Source: a virus
Lineage: Duplodnaviria > Heunggongvirae > Uroviricota > Caudoviricetes
Length of the DNA stretch: 5,410 nucleotides
Reading direction: 5' to 3' (one strand)
Virus record (IMG/VR): IMGVR_UViG_2534681651_000009
Within the stretch, counting starts at the first letter, position 1. Each line of letters starts with the position of its first letter. Of this stretch, positions 1,701 to 5,410 are shown piece after piece. Made by a program: the position numbers and the translations under genes. The notes under the pieces are model-generated. The model searched no databases and had not been told where the DNA came from. It was given only the letters and a program-made list of their open reading frames with translations.

Positions 1701-1711
1701 GTGGAGTGGAT

Positions 1712-4114
1712 ATGGCAGCAGTAAAAATCTCAGGTGTGCTGAAAGATGGTGCGGGAAAACCAATACAGAACTGCACTATTCAACTGAAGGCAAAGCGTAA
1801 CAGCACCACGGTACTGGTCAACACAGTGGCCTCTAAAAATCCGGATGAAGCCGGGCGTTACAGCATGGATGTTGAGTATGGCCAGTACAGCGTCACCCTG
1901 CTGGTTGAAGGTTTTCCGCCTTCACATGCCGGAACCATTACCGTCTATGAAGGTTCCAGACCAGGTACGCTGAATGATTTTCTCGGTGCCATGACGGAAG
2001 ATGATGTCATGCCGGAGGCATTGCGTCGTTTTGAGGAAATGGTGGAAGAAGCGGCACGCAACGCTGAAGCCGCCTCTCAGAGCGCAGCGGCGGCAAAGAA
2101 ATCCGAAACTGCAGCGGCATCATCGAAGAACGCGGCGAAAACCTCAGAAACGAATGCAGCTAACAGCGCACAGGCGGCAGCGGCCTCGCAGACTGCATCG
2201 GCAAACTCCGCAACAGCAGCTAAAAAATCAGAAACCAACGCGAAAAATAGCGAGACAGCCGCAACGACGAGCGAAACCAACGCAAAGTCCAGCCAGACGG
2301 CAGCGAAGACCAGCGAAACGAATGCTAAAGCCAGTGAAACTGCAGCAAAAAACAGCCAGGTTTCAGCAGCCCAAAGCGAGAGCGCGGCAGCCGGTTCTGC
2401 GACTTCAGCAGCCGGATCAGCAACTGCTGCGGCTAACAGCCAGAAAGCTGCGAAGACGAGTGAAACTAACGCAAAGTCCAGCCAGACGGCAGCGAAGACC
2501 AGCGAAACGAATGCCAAAGCCAGTGAAACTGTGGCGAAAAGCAGTCAGGATGCAGCGGCTCAAAGCGAGAGTGCCGCAGCCAGTTCTGCAAGCGCGGCGG
2601 CTGCTTCTGCCACTGCATCAGCTAACAGTCAAAAAGCAGCAAAAACCAGTGAAACCAACGCAAAGGTGAGCGAAACAGCGGCTACGAACTCAGCGAAAGC
2701 ATCGGCAGCAAGCCAGACGGCAGCTAAAGCAAGCGAAGATGCAGCCAGAGAGTACGCAAGCCAGGCTGCGGAGCCGTATAAATATGTCTTACAGCCGTTG
2801 CCTGATGTGTGGATACCGTTTAACGATTCACTGGATATGATTACCGGGTTTGCTCCTGGATATAAGAGAATCACAGTTGGTGACGATGTTATTGCATTGC
2901 CGTCTGAAAAGGTTGTTTCATTTACCAGGGCGTCAACTGCAACGTATATAGATAAGTCTGGGTGTTTTGCTGAATCAGCGATAAATGAACCACGTTTTGA
3001 AAAAGATGGTCTGCTCATTGAAGGTCAGAGAACGAATACTTTTTCTTATACGAATACACCAGTATCGTGGAACTATGACACTGCTAACTTAACTATTACC
3101 ACGGGAGTTGATGAGTATGGTTTCAGTTATGGTTTGTTTGGCGTTAAAGAAACATCCACAACTGAAAGGGCGACATTAATTTCTACTGGATATACCAGGG
3201 TTATTTCAGTTTCGGCAAATGAATCAGTTACTTTATCCTGCAGAGTTAAAAAAGTAAGTGGGGATGGTATTATCACGTTGCGTCCAAGAATATCATATGT
3301 TAACGACGATGGCTCAAGTAACACACTGACCGCTGGCGCATATATTGATTGCGAGACTGGCGATATGTTGAGTTATTCTGGAGGTGAGGCGGCAACTTAT
3401 AACATATTCAGAGAGTCTAATGGATGGATTCGTGTTGAGTTTACCTACAAATCACCAGAAGCAAAAAATATGTATGGGCGTTTTGAGTTTGGAGCACATC
3501 AACGATCAATCAAGTCTGGCGATAAATTAATGTTAACAACCCCTCAATTCGAAAAGGGACTAAACGCGTCATCTTTTATCATCACAACAGAGGTCGGTGC
3601 CACGAGAGCAAGTGACCAGGTAATCATACCTATACCTTTCAATTGGGCAACTCCACCAGTTAGTGTTCTCATGGAAGTTAATGTTAATTGGGATTCTGAA
3701 ATGCCTAATTTAGAAGGCTCTGCGCGTTTGCTTAATATCTCAATTACAGGGGCGACGACTGAAGTTTCTGATGAAAGTTATATGTATTTTGGTTTTACCA
3801 ATCGTGGTAAAAGGCTAATTATCACCAATGGCAAAGGAACAAAAACAGAATATAAAGCATATGGGAATAGAGAGAAAAGGAAATTTGTTACTGGCTTTAA
3901 GTTTACAGAAGATAAACAGTTGCAGGTTGTTGTTGATGGAATTTTAGGTGGCAGCTCCCCGTCTCTGCATACATTGCAACGTTATACTGCCGGTAATATT
4001 AATATCGGTGGACAATCATCCAGTGGCAACAGACACCTGTTCGGTCATGTGAAAAATTTACGCATTTGGCATAAAGAATTAACTGAGGCACAAATGGGGG
4101 AGAGTATTAAATGA
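1712..4114 (+). CDS. stf: Side tail fibre (Stf-like) protein, ~800 aa, mosaic: lambda-Stf-type N-terminus, repetitive Ala/Ser/Thr-rich shaft, and a divergent low-GC C-terminal putative receptor-binding region
   Basis: ORF track gives 1706-4114 from a GTG; I prefer ATG 1712 because GGAG at 1703-1706 sits 5 nt upstream and the product then starts MAAVKISGVLKDG..., matching lambda Stf (orf-401) as I recall it. The first ~110 aa resemble lambda Stf. The shaft carries repeated K-[TSK]-SETNAK motifs. From about aa 350 the sequence is unrelated to the Gly/His-rich lambda Stf C-terminus and ends ...HLFGHVKNLRIWHKELTEAQMGESIK, a motif reminiscent of the last strand of LamG/concanavalin-like jelly-roll domains. 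Stop TGA at 4112-4114. Confidence 0.85.
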   Translation: MAAVKISGVLKDGAGKPIQNCTIQLKAKRNSTTVLVNTVASKNPDEAGRYSMDVEYGQYSVTLLVEGFPPSHAGTITVYEGSRPGTLNDFLGAMTEDDVMPEALRRFEEMVEEAARNAEAASQSAAAAKKSETAAASSKNAAKTSETNAANSAQAAAASQTASANSATAAKKSETNAKNSETAATTSETNAKSSQTAAKTSETNAKASETAAKNSQVSAAQSESAAAGSATSAAGSATAAANSQKAAKTSETNAKSSQTAAKTSETNAKASETVAKSSQDAAAQSESAAASSASAAAASATASANSQKAAKTSETNAKVSETAATNSAKASAASQTAAKASEDAAREYASQAAEPYKYVLQPLPDVWIPFNDSLDMITGFAPGYKRITVGDDVIALPSEKVVSFTRASTATYIDKSGCFAESAINEPRFEKDGLLIEGQRTNTFSYTNTPVSWNYDTANLTITTGVDEYGFSYGLFGVKETSTTERATLISTGYTRVISVSANESVTLSCRVKKVSGDGIITLRPRISYVNDDGSSNTLTAGAYIDCETGDMLSYSGGEAATYNIFRESNGWIRVEFTYKSPEAKNMYGRFEFGAHQRSIKSGDKLMLTTPQFEKGLNASSFIITTEVGATRASDQVIIPIPFNWATPPVSVLMEVNVNWDSEMPNLEGSARLLNISITGATTEVSDESYMYFGFTNRGKRLIITNGKGTKTEYKAYGNREKRKFVTGFKFTEDKQLQVVVDGILGGSSPSLHTLQRYTAGNINIGGQSSSGNRHLFGHVKNLRIWHKELTEAQMGESIK
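2279..2656 (+). repeat. In-frame tandem duplication (2 x 189 bp, period 63 codons) inside the fibre shaft, embedded in a larger low-complexity region (~2050-2760)
   Basis: AACGCAAAGTCCAGCCAGACGGCAGCGAAGACCAGCGAAACGAATGC occurs at 2279 and again at 2468 with one mismatch; the rest of each unit is similar but diverged. Protein-level copies are TSETNAKSSQTAAKTSETNAKASETAAK... and ...ASETVAK... A third partial copy begins near 2657. Confidence 0.85.
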
Positions 4115-4392
4115 AAGATTTAACACTCAAATTTGCAGACAGGACCGACTTTTCGACCTTTATGGATAGCATTGGTTATGAAGATGACGAGGTAATGCAG
4201 AACAATGTTCTCATTGATGTGATAGGTAACGTGTACAAAGAAACCGGAGAACTGACTGAAGATGGCGAGCCGGTATGTGTTAAGGAAGACGGATATTTTG
4301 TAAACGTGCGCATCATTAATGATGCAAAAAAATCGTCAATATTCGATAAATACGCGGTTGTTGTTGAGCATCAACTTCGTGGCTGGATGTGA
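4111..4392 (+). CDS. Hypothetical small acidic protein (93 aa), start-stop overlapped with stf; possible fibre accessory or chaperone, or a moron
   Basis: ATG 4111-4113 overlaps the stf stop TGA 4112-4114 (ATGA overlap), implying translational coupling. Product has 19 Asp/Glu against about 11 Lys/Arg and no hydrophobic segment. Low GC, like the stf 3' region. I do not recognise the family. Confidence 0.6.
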   Translation: MKDLTLKFADRTDFSTFMDSIGYEDDEVMQNNVLIDVIGNVYKETGELTEDGEPVCVKEDGYFVNVRIINDAKKSSIFDKYAVVVEHQLRGWM

Positions 4393-4401
4393 GGTAGAGA
4401 A

Positions 4402-5106
4402 ATGGCTACATCGACAGTAATTCCAGGAGATATCACCAAGCTAAAGGGGGATGTCAGTAAAGCTAAGGAAGATATTTCATCAATTAGCGGAAAAGTATCA
4501 ACGCTTCAGACTGATATGGACAGTGCAAAGCAGGATATCAGTACCAGATACACAAAAACAGAAGTGGATAATAAGCTGAAAAACAAAGTGGAAGTGAACG
4601 ATCTGGAAAGCGGTCGTTATGGCGGAGATTTTTATCCACTGACAGGTCGTGAAGCGTTTTATTTATGGGGATTGGGCACAACTACAGCGGCGGCAAATCT
4701 TTATCTTAATCCTGACCCTGCAATTTCGTCTGTGCTGCGGTCAACATCGTCTATCCGCTATAAACATTCAGTAGAGACGATAGATTCAGAGCACGCCGAT
4801 CTCATTTTCAGGATGCGCCCTGTGTGGTACAGGTCGCAATGCGAAAATGACAGGCGTGACTGGGGATTCTATGGATTGATTGCCGAGGAAGTTGGAGAAA
4901 TTGCCCCTCAGTTTGTACACTGGCGACCAGCCAACGAAGATGATGCACCGGAAACCATTTCCAGCAATGGCCTTGTTGCCGAAGGTGTAATGTACGAACG
5001 TCTGGTTGTTCCACTGATTCACCATATCCAGAAGCTGACTGAAAGAGTTGATGAACTTGAGTCAGAATTAAAGTTGTTATCCGTTTCCCGAAGCGATATC
5101 GGATAA
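4402..5106 (+). CDS. Coiled-coil protein with a C-terminal peptidase-S74-like intramolecular chaperone domain (234 aa), free-standing rather than fused to a fibre
   Basis: GAGG at 4391-4394 sits 7 nt upstream of ATG 4402. The N-terminal ~70 aa are heptad-like (KLKGDVSKAKEDISSISGKVSTLQTDMDSAKQDIS). The C-terminal ~120 aa match the S74 chaperone-of-endosialidase pattern as I recall it: S116-S-I-R-Y-K121 (Ser/Lys dyad spacing), MRPVWY, GLIAEEVGEIAPQFV, and YERLVVPLIHHIQKLTERVDELESEL. Stop TAA at 5104-5106. Confidence 0.7.
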   Translation: MATSTVIPGDITKLKGDVSKAKEDISSISGKVSTLQTDMDSAKQDISTRYTKTEVDNKLKNKVEVNDLESGRYGGDFYPLTGREAFYLWGLGTTTAAANLYLNPDPAISSVLRSTSSIRYKHSVETIDSEHADLIFRMRPVWYRSQCENDRRDWGFYGLIAEEVGEIAPQFVHWRPANEDDAPETISSNGLVAEGVMYERLVVPLIHHIQKLTERVDELESELKLLSVSRSDIG

Positions 5107-5112
5107 AGGAGG
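5106..5112 (+). promoter_or_regulatory. Consensus Shine-Dalgarno (AAGGAGG) for the downstream membrane-protein ORF
   Basis: AAGGAGG at 5106-5112 overlaps the preceding stop codon and lies 4 nt upstream of ATG 5117. Confidence 0.7.
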
Positions 5113-5116
5113 CGTA

Positions 5117-5410
5117 ATGGATATAACACCTTTCCTTCATGCACTTTGTGCTGTGGCTGCGCAGGTACTGGTTGGTCTTTTTACCGGAAACTGGGCTTAC
5201 GGGGCGATAGCTGGTTGTACGTTCTTCATTGCGCGTGAACACACCCAGGCAGAATATCGCTGGATTGAAATGTTTGGGCATGGCAAGCGAATGAATATGC
5301 CGTGGTGGGGCGGTTTTGATCCGCGCGCTTGGGATGTGGCAAGCCTGATGGATTTTGCTGTGCCGGTGGTGGCGTGTCTGCTGGTCTGGCTGTTGGTTAA
5401 TCGTGGGTGA
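5117..5410 (+). CDS. Hypothetical small integral membrane protein (97 aa, about two predicted TM helices); possible moron such as a superinfection-exclusion or membrane-acting protein
   Basis: Consensus SD upstream. Hydrophobic stretches at about aa 6-38 (FLHALCAVAAQVLVGLFTGNWAYGAIAGCTFFIA) and 75-95 (VASLMDFAVPVVACLLVWLLV) flank a charged/aromatic loop (EHTQAEYRWIEMFGHGKRMNMPWWGGFDPRAW). GC content returns to roughly 50% or more. Stop TGA at 5408-5410. Family not recognised. Confidence 0.6.
   Translation: MDITPFLHALCAVAAQVLVGLFTGNWAYGAIAGCTFFIAREHTQAEYRWIEMFGHGKRMNMPWWGGFDPRAWDVASLMDFAVPVVACLLVWLLVNRG

What the first reader, a model, noticed from the sequence alone, without database searches (positions are those of the whole stretch)
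5117..5410. Small membrane protein with a consensus SD at the edge of the tail module
This 97-aa protein has two hydrophobic segments around a Trp/charged-rich loop and is preceded by a perfect AAGGAGG. Small membrane proteins at the end of tail operons in temperate phages are often morons acting on the host envelope, such as superinfection exclusion or receptor masking. It lacks a lipobox, so it is not Cor-like in the strict sense. It is also the first gene after the low-GC cassette, so it may belong to a different module.
Basis: inference. Interest (0 to 1): 0.45.

Follow-up and report, generated by a model that had tools for sequence, protein, structure and literature searches.

The report
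Small membrane protein trailing tail-fibre genes
This is a real, strongly conserved gene for a 97-residue inner-membrane protein of unknown function that travels next to the host-recognition (tail-fibre or tailspike) genes of many unrelated phages and matches about a third of complete E. coli genomes; it probably acts on the cell envelope, but I found no experimental work on it.

Summary
Window 5117-5410 (+) encodes a 97-aa protein, and AAGGAGG at 5106-5112 overlaps the upstream stop codon. The protein is a full-length member of PHROG 1443 (unknown function; UniRef name 'Ybl63'). It has no Pfam, NCBIfam, PADLOC, PDB or fold relative. AlphaFold gives a confident three-helix membrane fold, not two segments, with a near-invariant motif H8...R40-E41-x-x-Q44-A45-E46. 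dN/dS is 0.11-0.24. The DNA matches 1904 of 5426 complete E. coli genomes.

The main new result is context. The gene is a constant 3' flank of exchangeable receptor-binding-protein cassettes in lambdoid, P22-like, P2/HP1-like and P1-like phages, in a 108-kb phage-plasmid, and in 57 of 80 environmental podovirus contigs. Broken remnants lie behind tailspike genes in two virulent lineages. It is also a syntenic chromosomal gene in five Aeromonas species.

Here it looks co-translated with the late tail operon, not an autonomous moron. The most likely role is an envelope-acting exclusion or surface-conversion protein (confidence about 0.35). Rivals are a housekeeping-type membrane function, a holin-like role and an assembly helper. 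It is not homologous to HK97 gp15, P22 SieA, GtrA or the P22 holin, and it has no lipobox, so it is not Cor-like. Moderately interesting and experimentally tractable.

The parts
5106..5112 (+). Shine-Dalgarno AAGGAGG, 4 nt before the ATG; its first base is the last base of the upstream TAA, which suggests translational coupling
5117..5410 (+). CDS for the 97-aa three-helix membrane protein, PHROG 1443 / 'Ybl63' family (stop codon at 5408-5410)
   Evidence: (E=3.5e-59, profile positions 1-96 of 97)
5126..5185 (+). Helix 1 (residues 4-23), carrying near-invariant H8 and Q16
5192..5275 (+). Helix 2 (residues 26-53): a hydrophobic part (26-39) that continues into the polar signature
5234..5263 (+). 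Family signature R40-E41-H42-T43-Q44-A45-E46-Y47-R48-W49. E41 is invariant, and R40, Q44, A45 and E46 are at least 90% conserved down to about 30% overall identity
5276..5335 (+). Trp/Gly-rich interfacial loop (residues 54-73: G.GKR.NMPWWGGFD.R.W), with W72 invariant. The whole polar region 40-73 carries about 5.3 K+R on average, so the positive-inside rule predicts it is cytoplasmic
5336..5404 (+). Helix 3 (residues 74-96), with conserved D79 and P83 and almost no C-terminal tail
5105..5105 (.). Mosaic boundary. Upstream sequence is variable; downstream sequence is about 96% identical across many lambda-like phages
4402..5106 (+). Context: 234-aa tail-fibre-domain protein with a Peptidase_S74 intramolecular-chaperone domain. 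It is one of at least three alternative upstream cassettes
4111..4392 (+). Context: 93-aa protein (phrog_1361) that accompanies side tail fibres with lectin-like (Laminin_G_3) tips. In phage 21 the 97-aa gene follows it directly
1706..4114 (+). Context: side tail fibre (Stf) with a conserved N-terminus and a low-GC variable C-terminal part

Best explanation
Window 5117-5410 encodes a member of an uncharacterised family of stand-alone inner-membrane proteins of about 95 residues (PHROG 1443, 'Ybl63'). The protein has three helices. Shown: a helical hairpin (residues 4-23 and 26-53) and a third helix (74-96) frame a highly conserved polar site made of H8, R40-E41, Q44, E46 and D79. Inferred from helix geometry: H8, E41 and D79 all lie about 4-5 residues below the same membrane face. 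Inferred from K+R counts: that face is probably the cytoplasmic one. Shown: phages carry the gene as a fixed 3' flank of their exchangeable receptor-binding-protein cassette, so it is inherited together with whichever fibre or tailspike sits upstream. Inferred mechanism: the conserved site binds or acts on a broadly conserved inner-membrane or envelope-assembly component of diderm Proteobacteria. This changes the envelope so that the carrier cell (lysogen or infected cell) is less accessible to phages, either by superinfection exclusion at entry or by interference with the surface-glycan or LPS receptor pathway. The effect does not depend on the specificity of the adjacent fibre. In this window the protein is made from the late tail-operon transcript by coupled translation, not from a promoter of its own.
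For: It is a real, constrained gene. The PHROG 1443 match is full-length. There are 583 homologs and 441 clusters at 50% identity, nearly all stand-alone proteins of about 90-120 aa. dN/dS is 0.11-0.24. The DNA matches 1904 of 5426 complete E. coli genomes, and the exact protein is on at least 1000 contigs. AF2 gives a three-helix fold at pLDDT 91.5 and 96.5 for two distant members. The conserved polar motif persists at about 30% identity. RBP linkage across lineages: lambdoid phages (75 of 80 IMG/VR loci have the conserved stf 5' end upstream); a 108-kb phage-plasmid with the identical cassette; P22-like Gally, where the order is tailspike, gene, int, the slot that holds gtrABC in P22; P2/HP1-like prophages of Aeromonas and Leclercia, where the gene abuts an S74 fibre; a P2-like prophage carrying a DGR; a P1-like Leclercia element; Comamonas and Pantoea prophages, after GpJ-like genes; and 57 of 80 environmental podovirus contigs with tailspikes at positions -1 to -3. 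Near-identical proteins follow at least three different cassettes, so the action is independent of fibre type. Broken remnants behind tailspike genes in virulent HC6-like siphophages and a Kuttervirus show co-transfer with RBPs and loss when there is no lysogeny. Gally has a terminator-then-promoter layout, and a plasmid carrying phd/doc holds the gene among accessory genes rather than structural ones. RBP hotspots are documented to mix fibre swapping with defence-like cargo (bioRxiv 10.1101/2024.10.15.618418). Apart from two MAG records labelled Collinsella and Dehalococcoidia, every genome hit is from diderm Pseudomonadota or Desulfovibrio.
Against: There is no functional evidence of any kind and no homology to any known exclusion or conversion protein: PADLOC gave nothing, and hhalign probabilities against HK97 gp15, P22 SieA and GtrA were below 1%. 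The family is a syntenic core chromosomal gene in five Aeromonas species and lies beside housekeeping genes in several Alphaproteobacteria. That points to a cellular function that need not concern phages. In this window, in phage 21 and in P2/HP1-like prophages the gene has no promoter of its own and sits in or at the end of a late operon, so expression in lysogens is unproven. Intact copies exist in Aeromonas jumbo phages of about 235 kb, which I take to be virulent. If the conserved loop is cytoplasmic, direct contact with incoming phage parts in the periplasm is less likely.
Confidence: 0.35

Rival explanations
1. It is a minimal membrane enzyme, ion- or metal-binding protein or regulator of cellular origin. 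Its conserved His/Glu/Asp site carries out a housekeeping-type envelope or membrane function, for example in lipid A/LPS, undecaprenyl-linked glycan or cation handling. Phages carry it as a general fitness factor for the host, not as an anti-phage function.
For: It is a syntenic single-copy chromosomal gene in five Aeromonas species, convergent with two MsbB/LpxM-type lipid-A acyltransferase genes. It also has chromosomal, non-phage neighbours in Alphaproteobacteria. The near-invariant H, R-E, Q, E and D residues placed at one membrane depth look like an active or binding site rather than a passive plug. Phage copies are 55-65% identical to the Aeromonas and Leclercia copies, which suggests the same biochemistry.
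Against: A pure fitness factor gives no reason for the tight, repeated linkage to receptor-binding genes in at least six phage lineages. No operon partner recurs in chromosomal contexts. No fold or sequence relative with a known activity was found. The lipid-A neighbours are on the opposite strand and were found in one genus only.
Confidence: 0.2
2. It is a lysis-module protein: a three-helix holin or a holin/endolysin regulator that happens to sit at the junction between tail and lysis genes.
For: It is small and has three membrane helices, like class I holins. In 32 of 80 environmental podovirus contigs an endolysin-like gene lies 1-4 genes downstream, mostly at +2. In the P1-like Leclercia element it lies two genes upstream of a LydB gene.
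Against: hhalign probability against the P22 class I holin is 0.3%, and there is no PHROG holin hit. It lacks the charged C-terminal tail typical of holins (mean 2-3 residues after helix 3) and has a 34-residue conserved loop, whereas holins are poorly conserved (own knowledge). The podovirus contigs have other small membrane proteins between it and the endolysin: a 61-aa protein with one weak TM and a charged tail, or a phrog_1544-type protein. The P2/HP1-like prophages have their lysis genes elsewhere, and lambdoid and P22-like phages normally have a complete lysis cassette elsewhere (P22; own knowledge). It is a core gene in Aeromonas.
Confidence: 0.1
3. It is an accessory factor of the lytic cycle for receptor-binding proteins, for example membrane-associated help with fibre or tailspike maturation or with keeping progeny from sticking to the dying cell. 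It would be needed when the neighbouring fibres are made.
For: The start is coupled or abuts directly behind fibre genes, often S74-chaperone fibres. It lies inside late tail operons. In 47 of 78 environmental loci the gap to the co-directional upstream gene is at most 30 nt.
Against: The gene has decayed in two virulent lineages whose adjacent tailspike ORFs remain full-length. The same protein follows unrelated RBP types (S74 fibres, lectin-tipped Stf, P22-type and pectate-lyase-type tailspikes). It also occurs far from any RBP. I know of no precedent for fibre assembly at the membrane (own knowledge).
Confidence: 0.1
4. It has no current function for the phage. It is a conserved piece of DNA kept mainly as the downstream homology arm for recombinational exchange of fibre cassettes.
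For: There is a sharp mosaic boundary 12 nt upstream of the ATG, with 95-99% nucleotide identity downstream across phages whose upstream cassettes differ.
Against: dN/dS of 0.11-0.24, including 0.155 at dS 0.74 against Gally, shows selection on the protein itself. Motif conservation at 30% identity across classes of Proteobacteria cannot be explained by DNA homology arms.
Confidence: 0.03

Closest known systems
PHROG 1443 / phage 21 CPT_21_24 'putative membrane protein' / UniRef 'Ybl63' (all uncharacterised)
   Same: Same family. The HMM match is full-length, identity to the phage 21 protein is 97%, and the exact sequence carries the UniRef name Ybl63.
   Different: Nothing differs. These are labels without a function, and no paper in the searchable library mentions them.
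Cor (T1, phi80, N15) and Llp (T5): superinfection-exclusion lipoproteins encoded beside receptor-binding genes (own knowledge)
   Same: A small envelope protein encoded next to the receptor-binding gene, so it is co-inherited with it.
   Different: Cor and Llp are outer-membrane lipoproteins with a lipobox that block one specific receptor (FhuA). This protein has no lipobox, is a three-helix inner-membrane protein, follows many different RBPs unchanged, and hits no annotated PHROG.
Inner-membrane exclusion proteins: HK97 gp15, P22 SieA, T4 Imm
   Same: Small phage-encoded inner-membrane proteins. gp15 and SieA are encoded beside the virion proteins involved in entry. This is the same working model: blocking entry from the inner membrane.
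   Different: No detectable homology (hhalign 0.5% to gp15, 0.2% to SieA). Size and helix number differ. gp15 is annotated as a moron product with a putative terminator after it and sieA has an annotated promoter, whereas here there are no signals of that kind. T4 Imm was not compared directly.
Surface-glycan conversion genes beside tailspike genes: P22 gtrABC, Sf6 oac, D3 iap / epsilon15 small Wzy inhibitors
   Same: In the P22-like phage Gally the gene occupies the tailspike-to-int slot that holds gtrABC in P22. The RBPs it accompanies include glycan-type domains: pectate-lyase-like tailspikes, S74 fibres and lectin-tipped Stf. Small single-gene membrane inhibitors of O-antigen polymerase are known in D3 and epsilon15 (own knowledge).
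   Different: No homology to GtrA. No glycosyl- or acyltransferase domain. No LPS phenotype has been tested. A seemingly relevant test in phage Kapi1 (hyp24) turned out to concern an unrelated 34-aa ORF.
P2 Z/fun hotspot cargo
   Same: In a P2-like prophage (L165) the gene sits between the fibre genes and the sheath gene. This is the tail-embedded hotspot known to mix RBP swapping with defence-like cargo.
   Different: Z/fun itself was not compared. The family is not restricted to P2-like phages.
Class I (three-TM) holins such as lambda S and P22 gp13
   Same: About 100 aa and three membrane helices; near an endolysin gene in one environmental clade.
   Different: No homology, no charged C-terminal tail, a long conserved loop, separate from the lysis genes in the prophages examined, and chromosomal in Aeromonas.

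Membership tests
PHROG 1443 (unknown function) | Significant full-length match to the family HMM | tested here: met
   E=3.5e-59, residues 1-96 on profile positions 1-96 of 97
PHROG 1443 (unknown function) | Family signature H...G/A-R-E-x-x-Q-A-E...W...P and the three-helix fold | tested here: met
   Alignments A1, A2 and A5; AF2 pLDDT 91.5 and 96.5
Cor/Llp-type exclusion lipoproteins | Signal peptide with a lipobox cysteine | tested here: not met
   C11 is preceded by H-A-L, the Cys is not conserved, and the N-terminus has no positive n-region
Cor/Llp-type exclusion lipoproteins | Sequence homology to the family | tested here: not met
   Only phrog_1443 and its fragment family phrog_34165 hit; no Pfam or NCBIfam match
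Inner-membrane superinfection-exclusion proteins (HK97 gp15, P22 SieA) | Sequence or profile homology | tested here: not met
   hhalign probability 0.5% (gp15) and 0.2% (SieA); PADLOC gave no hit
Inner-membrane superinfection-exclusion proteins (HK97 gp15, P22 SieA) | Blocks infection or DNA entry when expressed alone | not testable with these tools
   Needs plating and adsorption assays
Moron (autonomous transcription unit inside a late operon) | Own promoter upstream and terminator downstream | tested here: not met
   No promoter-like or terminator-like site on the + strand in window 3900-5410, in phage 21 or in AST215; the SD overlaps the upstream stop. These are consensus scans only, and the window ends at the stop codon. 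In Gally a terminator-like hairpin and a 9/12 promoter-like site do precede the gene
Moron (autonomous transcription unit inside a late operon) | Composition differs from neighbouring genes; present or absent between related phages | tested here: met
   GC 0.53 against 0.37-0.44 upstream; sharp mosaic boundary at 5105; absent from HK97, whose stf-tfa is followed by attP and int
Holins (class I) | At least one TM helix and small size | tested here: met
   Three helices, 97 aa
Holins (class I) | Hydrophilic, charged C-terminal tail | tested here: not met
   Only 2-3 residues follow helix 3, with 0.4 K+R on average
Holins (class I) | Encoded in the lysis cassette next to the endolysin | tested here: inconclusive
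   Not so in the window or in the P2/HP1-like, P22-like and phage 21 contexts. An endolysin-like gene lies at +1 to +4 in 32 of 80 environmental contigs, usually with another small membrane protein in between
Gtr/Oac-type O-antigen conversion | Homology to GtrA/B/C or to an acyltransferase | tested here: not met
   hhalign 0.1% to P22 GtrA; no Pfam domain in 63 members
Gtr/Oac-type O-antigen conversion | Located between the tailspike gene and att/int | tested here: met
   Gally: tailspike, gene, int, compared with P22: tailspike, gtrCBA, attP, int. This holds for the P22-like context only
Gtr/Oac-type O-antigen conversion | Alters the LPS profile of the carrier | not testable with these tools
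   Needs LPS gels or mass spectrometry

The most novel reading that the evidence does not exclude
The family is a previously unrecognised class of minimal (about 95 aa, three-helix) intramembrane enzyme or ligand-binding protein of cellular origin (core gene in Aeromonas). A His-Glu-Asp site at the membrane interface acts on a universal step of envelope glycolipid assembly. Phages of all three tail morphotypes co-transfer it with glycan-targeting fibres and tailspikes as a generic, receptor-independent way of remodelling the cell surface. That would be a new, widespread mechanism of lysogenic conversion or exclusion, potentially at work in about a third of E. coli strains.
Probability: 0.12. 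Interest if true: 0.75.

Novelty: new member of a known kind. Interest (0 to 1): 0.45.

Why it matters
The DNA matches roughly one in three complete E. coli genomes, often at more than one place (median 2). Phage-plasmids, P22-like, P2-like and P1-like phages and many environmental podoviruses also carry the family, yet it has no name, no domain assignment and no publication that I could find. It moves together with the genes that set phage host range. If it changes the envelope or blocks entry, it would affect phage-therapy host-range predictions, prophage-mediated resistance and possibly serotype or LPS-related traits of clinical E. coli. Its small size, very strong motif and confident model make it easy to test. 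A positive result would add a new family to the short list of inner-membrane exclusion and conversion proteins. The chromosomal Aeromonas copy offers a route to the underlying cellular function.

Tried and rejected
Nothing informative came from the following:
- Pfam, NCBIfam and PADLOC on the protein, and Pfam on 63 divergent members, where only scattered sub-threshold hits such as PhoR, VirB3 and TctB appeared.
- A PDB sequence-profile search, which found 0 hits.
- Foldseek against PDB and BFVD, where nothing had E below 0.4. The AFDB library was unavailable.
- Literature searches for Ybl63, WP_000355609, FIG00639861, phrog_1443 and CPT_21_24. The source paper of the Lambda_ev phages does not discuss the gene.

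The Kapi1 lead was rejected. Its 'hyp24' between tail spike and integrase had been tested for LPS modification with a negative result, but it is an unrelated 34-aa ORF on the opposite strand, so that result says nothing about this family.

The hypothesis that the gene is tied specifically to Peptidase_S74 fibres was rejected. S74 fibres precede it in the window, HC6, Aeromonas media, Leclercia and E. ruysiae. Phage 21 Stf (Laminin_G_3 tip), the Gally tailspike and the environmental pectate-lyase-type tailspikes have no S74 domain.

The idea that the Aeromonas neighbour was a Kdo kinase was rejected. It is a PA4780-type RIO1-like kinase.

The alignment A2 was too diverse for the search for related loci. 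The naive single-ORF neighbour call was noisy and was replaced by clustering. The 157-aa antisense ORF at 4808-5281 (-) is regarded as an artefact of the coding strand; antisense ORFs of the family gene cluster together across loci.
Full report
1. THE OBSERVATION. The window is the right end of a lambdoid prophage tail region. In order it holds the J C-terminus (148-978), lom (1048-1647), an 802-aa side tail fibre (1706-4114), a 93-aa ORF (4111-4392), a 234-aa tail-fibre-domain ORF with a Peptidase_S74 chaperone domain (4402-5106), and the 97-aa ORF at 5117-5410.

The ORF starts with ATG, and its TGA is the last codon of the window. AAGGAGG occurs once in the window, at 5106-5112, 4 nt before the ATG and overlapping the last base of the upstream TAA. 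GC rises from about 0.37-0.44 in the fibre cassette to 0.53 in the ORF. Hydropathy shows residues 3-39 and 74-95 as hydrophobic around a polar, Trp-rich loop. There is no lipobox. The description is therefore correct. The one amendment is that the first hydrophobic stretch is a hairpin of two helices.

2. IS IT A REAL GENE? Yes.
- It matches PHROG 1443 end to end (E=3.5e-59).
- It has 583 homologs in the 5.8-billion-protein set.
- A profile search found 441 clusters at 50% identity. Nearly all are stand-alone proteins of about 90-120 aa, and none is fused to a larger domain.
- dN/dS against six homologs is 0.11-0.24, including 0.155 at dS 0.74.
- The DNA matches 1904 of 5426 complete E. coli genomes, with a median of two places per positive genome.
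- The exact protein is on at least 1000 contigs, and one UniRef name for it is 'Ybl63'.

3. THE PROTEIN. AlphaFold2 on a 38-sequence alignment gives pLDDT 91.5 with helices at 4-23, 26-53 and 74-96. A member only about 50% identical gives the same architecture at pLDDT 96.5.

Among close homologs 25 positions are invariant. Down to about 30% identity the survivors are H8, R40, E41 (invariant), Q44, A45, E46, W72 (invariant) and P83, with D79 in most sequences.

The hydrophobic part of helix 2 is only 14 residues long, so the R-E-H-x-Q segment must sit within the membrane interface. Counting from the G24-N25 turn, H8 and E41 lie at the same depth, and D79 lies about 5 residues into helix 3. I infer a buried His/Glu/Asp polar site near one membrane face; I could not measure distances in the model.

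The polar region 40-73 carries 5.2-5.5 K+R on average, against about 0 for the turn and 0.4 for each end. The positive-inside rule therefore predicts N-in, loop-in, C-out. The phage 21 GenBank note instead reports TMHMM with two TM segments and the loop outside, and SignalP predicting a 29-aa signal peptide. The conservation of H8 and Q16 argues against a cleaved signal peptide. Topology remains to be measured.

4. HOMOLOGY TO ANYTHING KNOWN. None was found.
- Pfam, NCBIfam and PADLOC: no significant hit. Pfam on 63 divergent members: nothing consistent.
- PDB sequence profile: 0 hits.
- Foldseek against PDB and BFVD: nothing with E below 0.4.
- Direct profile comparisons all gave probabilities below 1%: HK97 gp15, P22 SieA, P22 GtrA and the P22 class I holin.
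- No paper in the searchable library mentions any identifier of the family.

5. GENOMIC CONTEXT (the main new result).

(a) Lambdoid phages.
- In the nearest genome (99.8% identical) the gene is the last intact rightward gene, followed by a tfa remnant and a leftward diguanylate-cyclase gene.
- Phage 21 and Lambda_2E9 have Stf, a 93-aa gene, then the gene, followed by leftward sitABCD cargo.
- Many lambda-like phages match the window only from position 5105 onward.
- Among 80 E. coli IMG/VR loci, the upstream cassette is the 234-aa S74 type in 35, the 93-aa-only type in 17, a type unlike the window's in 23 (only the conserved stf 5' end matches), the stf 5' end plus the window-type stf 3' part in 2, and unmatched in 3.
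- The gene is thus a constant 3' flank of a variable receptor-binding cassette.

(b) Other phage types.
- A 108-kb phage-plasmid has the same 93aa-234aa-gene cassette, and its 234-aa protein has the same accession as in the chromosomal prophage.
- In the P22-like phage Gally the order is tailspike, gene, integrase. In P22 that slot holds gtrABC.
- In P2/HP1-like prophages of Aeromonas media and Leclercia the gene abuts an S74 tail-fibre gene inside the tail operon.
- A P2-like prophage carrying a DGR has it between the fibre genes and the sheath gene, the position of the Z/fun hotspot described as mixing RBP swapping with defence-like cargo.
- In a P1-like Leclercia element it follows two lectin-tipped fibres, each with its own small 94-95-aa partner.
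- Comamonas and Pantoea prophages have it after giant GpJ-like proteins.

(c) Environmental viral contigs. In 80 divergent contigs the upstream neighbour is co-directional in 74 of 78 and has a gap of at most 30 nt in 47. In 57 contigs one cluster of pectate-lyase-like tailspikes occupies positions -1 to -3, preceded by P22-type ejection proteins.

(d) Remnants in virulent phages. HC6-like siphophages carry a copy broken by a frameshift and a stop behind an S74 tailspike. A Kuttervirus carries a 41-aa stump behind its tailspike cluster. The gene evidently travels with RBP cassettes and decays where there is no lysogeny. Intact copies do exist, however, in Aeromonas phages, including jumbo phages of about 235 kb.

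(e) Exceptions.
- Five Aeromonas species carry the gene at one syntenic chromosomal locus (PolB ... Pirin - gene - RIO1-like kinase - two MsbB/LpxM-like acyltransferases) with no phage genes nearby.
- Several alphaproteobacterial copies sit beside housekeeping genes.
- A 92.5-kb E. coli plasmid carrying phd/doc has it in an ea-type accessory block that also holds a Pol III theta-subunit gene and an S24-peptidase gene.
- Apart from two MAG records labelled Collinsella and Dehalococcoidia, every genome hit is from diderm Pseudomonadota or Desulfovibrio.

6. EXPRESSION SIGNALS. The window, phage 21 and AST215 show no promoter-like or terminator-like site on the coding strand near the gene. With the SD overlapping the preceding stop codon, the gene looks translationally coupled to the late tail operon. 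In Gally a terminator-like hairpin follows the tailspike gene and a 9/12 promoter-like site precedes the gene, which is a moron-style unit. These are consensus scans, not proof.

7. INTERPRETATION. What is shown: a constrained, widespread three-helix membrane protein with a conserved polar site, physically linked to receptor-binding genes across phage lineages, yet also a cellular gene in some genera.

What is inferred: by analogy with the placement of Cor and Llp (own knowledge), gtrABC and sieA, HK97 gp15 and Z/fun, the most economical reading is an envelope-acting accessory protein that protects the carrier cell at the level of phage entry or surface-receptor biogenesis. Its target would be a conserved host component rather than a fibre-specific receptor, since the same protein follows different RBPs. 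I put this at about 0.35.

Rivals:
- Housekeeping-type membrane enzyme or regulator carried as a general fitness factor: 0.2.
- Holin or lysis regulator: 0.1. An endolysin gene recurs downstream in one clade, but the protein has no charged tail, is too conserved, other holin candidates are present, and it is chromosomal in Aeromonas.
- RBP-assembly or release helper: 0.1. This is weakened by decay of the gene next to full-length tailspike ORFs.
- Mere recombination arm: 0.03. This is refuted by dN/dS.
- The remaining probability is 'something else'.

8. NOVELTY AND VERDICT. The gene is catalogued but uncharacterised. If the leading reading is right, it is a new family within a known kind: cargo linked to RBP genes that excludes phages or converts the cell surface. 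It is a membrane protein, it is not Cor-like, and it is a separate module. It is not an autonomous moron here, it is not limited to module edges or temperate phages, and it is unlikely to be a fibre-specific receptor mask. Interest is moderate (0.45), because the family is abundant, strikingly conserved, clinically widespread and easy to test.

Noticed in passing
window 4402-5106 (+): The 234-aa 'mini tail fibre' has an N-terminal 32 aa like the start of phrog_4563 fibres, an Lpp-like coiled coil, and a Peptidase_S74 intramolecular chaperone (residues 116-172). If S74 self-cleavage occurs, only a stub of about 115 aa would remain on the virion. The identical protein (WP_000235971.1) occurs in a chromosomal prophage and in a 108-kb phage-plasmid.
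   Followed up: partly
window 4111-4392 (+); L002 5710-5988; L162 5994-6278 and 7601-7888: A protein of about 93 aa follows each lectin-tipped (Laminin_G_3) side fibre. The window and phage 21 copies are homologous (phrog_1361). Two 94-95-aa ORFs hold the same position in a P1-like Leclercia element, though I did not test their homology. This is probably a fibre-tip-specific assembly chaperone taking the place of Tfa.
   Followed up: partly
window about 2000-2700 (+), inside stf: An Ala/Ser/Thr/Lys-rich repetitive stretch (units of the TSETNAK..SQTAAK type) with very strong AT skew (0.5-0.6). It generates long spurious ORFs in other frames and on the opposite strand.
   Followed up: no
L005 about 3960-4220 (phage HC6) and L167 5980-6105 (Salmonella Kuttervirus KFSST3): Unannotated, broken remnants of the family gene lie directly behind tailspike genes in virulent phages. 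The HC6 copy has a frameshift plus a stop; the KFSST3 copy is a 41-aa stump. These look like footprints of tailspike-cassette acquisition from temperate phages.
   Followed up: yes
L009 8001-8309 and L099, L101, L103, L106 (Aeromonas chromosomes): The family gene is a syntenic chromosomal gene in five Aeromonas species. It is convergent with a PA4780-type RIO1-like kinase gene and two MsbB/LpxM-like lipid-A acyltransferase genes, which is a weak hint towards LPS.
   Followed up: partly
L250 4980-5288 (E. coli plasmid p1_000837, 92.5 kb): In this plasmid, which carries phd/doc, a 76%-identical copy is not next to fibre genes. It sits in an ead/eaa-type accessory block that also holds a Pol III theta-subunit gene and an S24-peptidase gene.
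   Followed up: no
L015-L094 (IMG/VR E. coli prophage contigs): 29 of 80 viral contigs end exactly at the stop codon of this gene, as the window does. Prophage-boundary callers evidently treat it as the last viral gene.
   Followed up: no
L165 6277-9429: A P2-like prophage from a metagenome carries a diversity-generating retroelement (bAvd plus reverse transcriptase, with a likely target gene) immediately after the family gene, inside the tail-fibre region.
   Followed up: no
L001 9431-11308 (E. coli AST215, downstream of the window's end): Just past the gene lie a tail-fibre-assembly pseudogene fragment, a leftward sensor diguanylate-cyclase gene and a capsid-gene fragment. This suggests a decayed or composite prophage end carrying a c-di-GMP gene.
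   Followed up: no
L172-L249 (environmental podovirus contigs), position +1: Between the family gene and an endolysin-like gene there is usually either a 61-aa protein (one weak TM plus a charged tail) or a 160-aa phrog_1544 membrane protein. These are likely the real holins of those phages. phrog_1544 also neighbours the family gene in Aeromonas phage 62AhydR11PP.
   Followed up: partly
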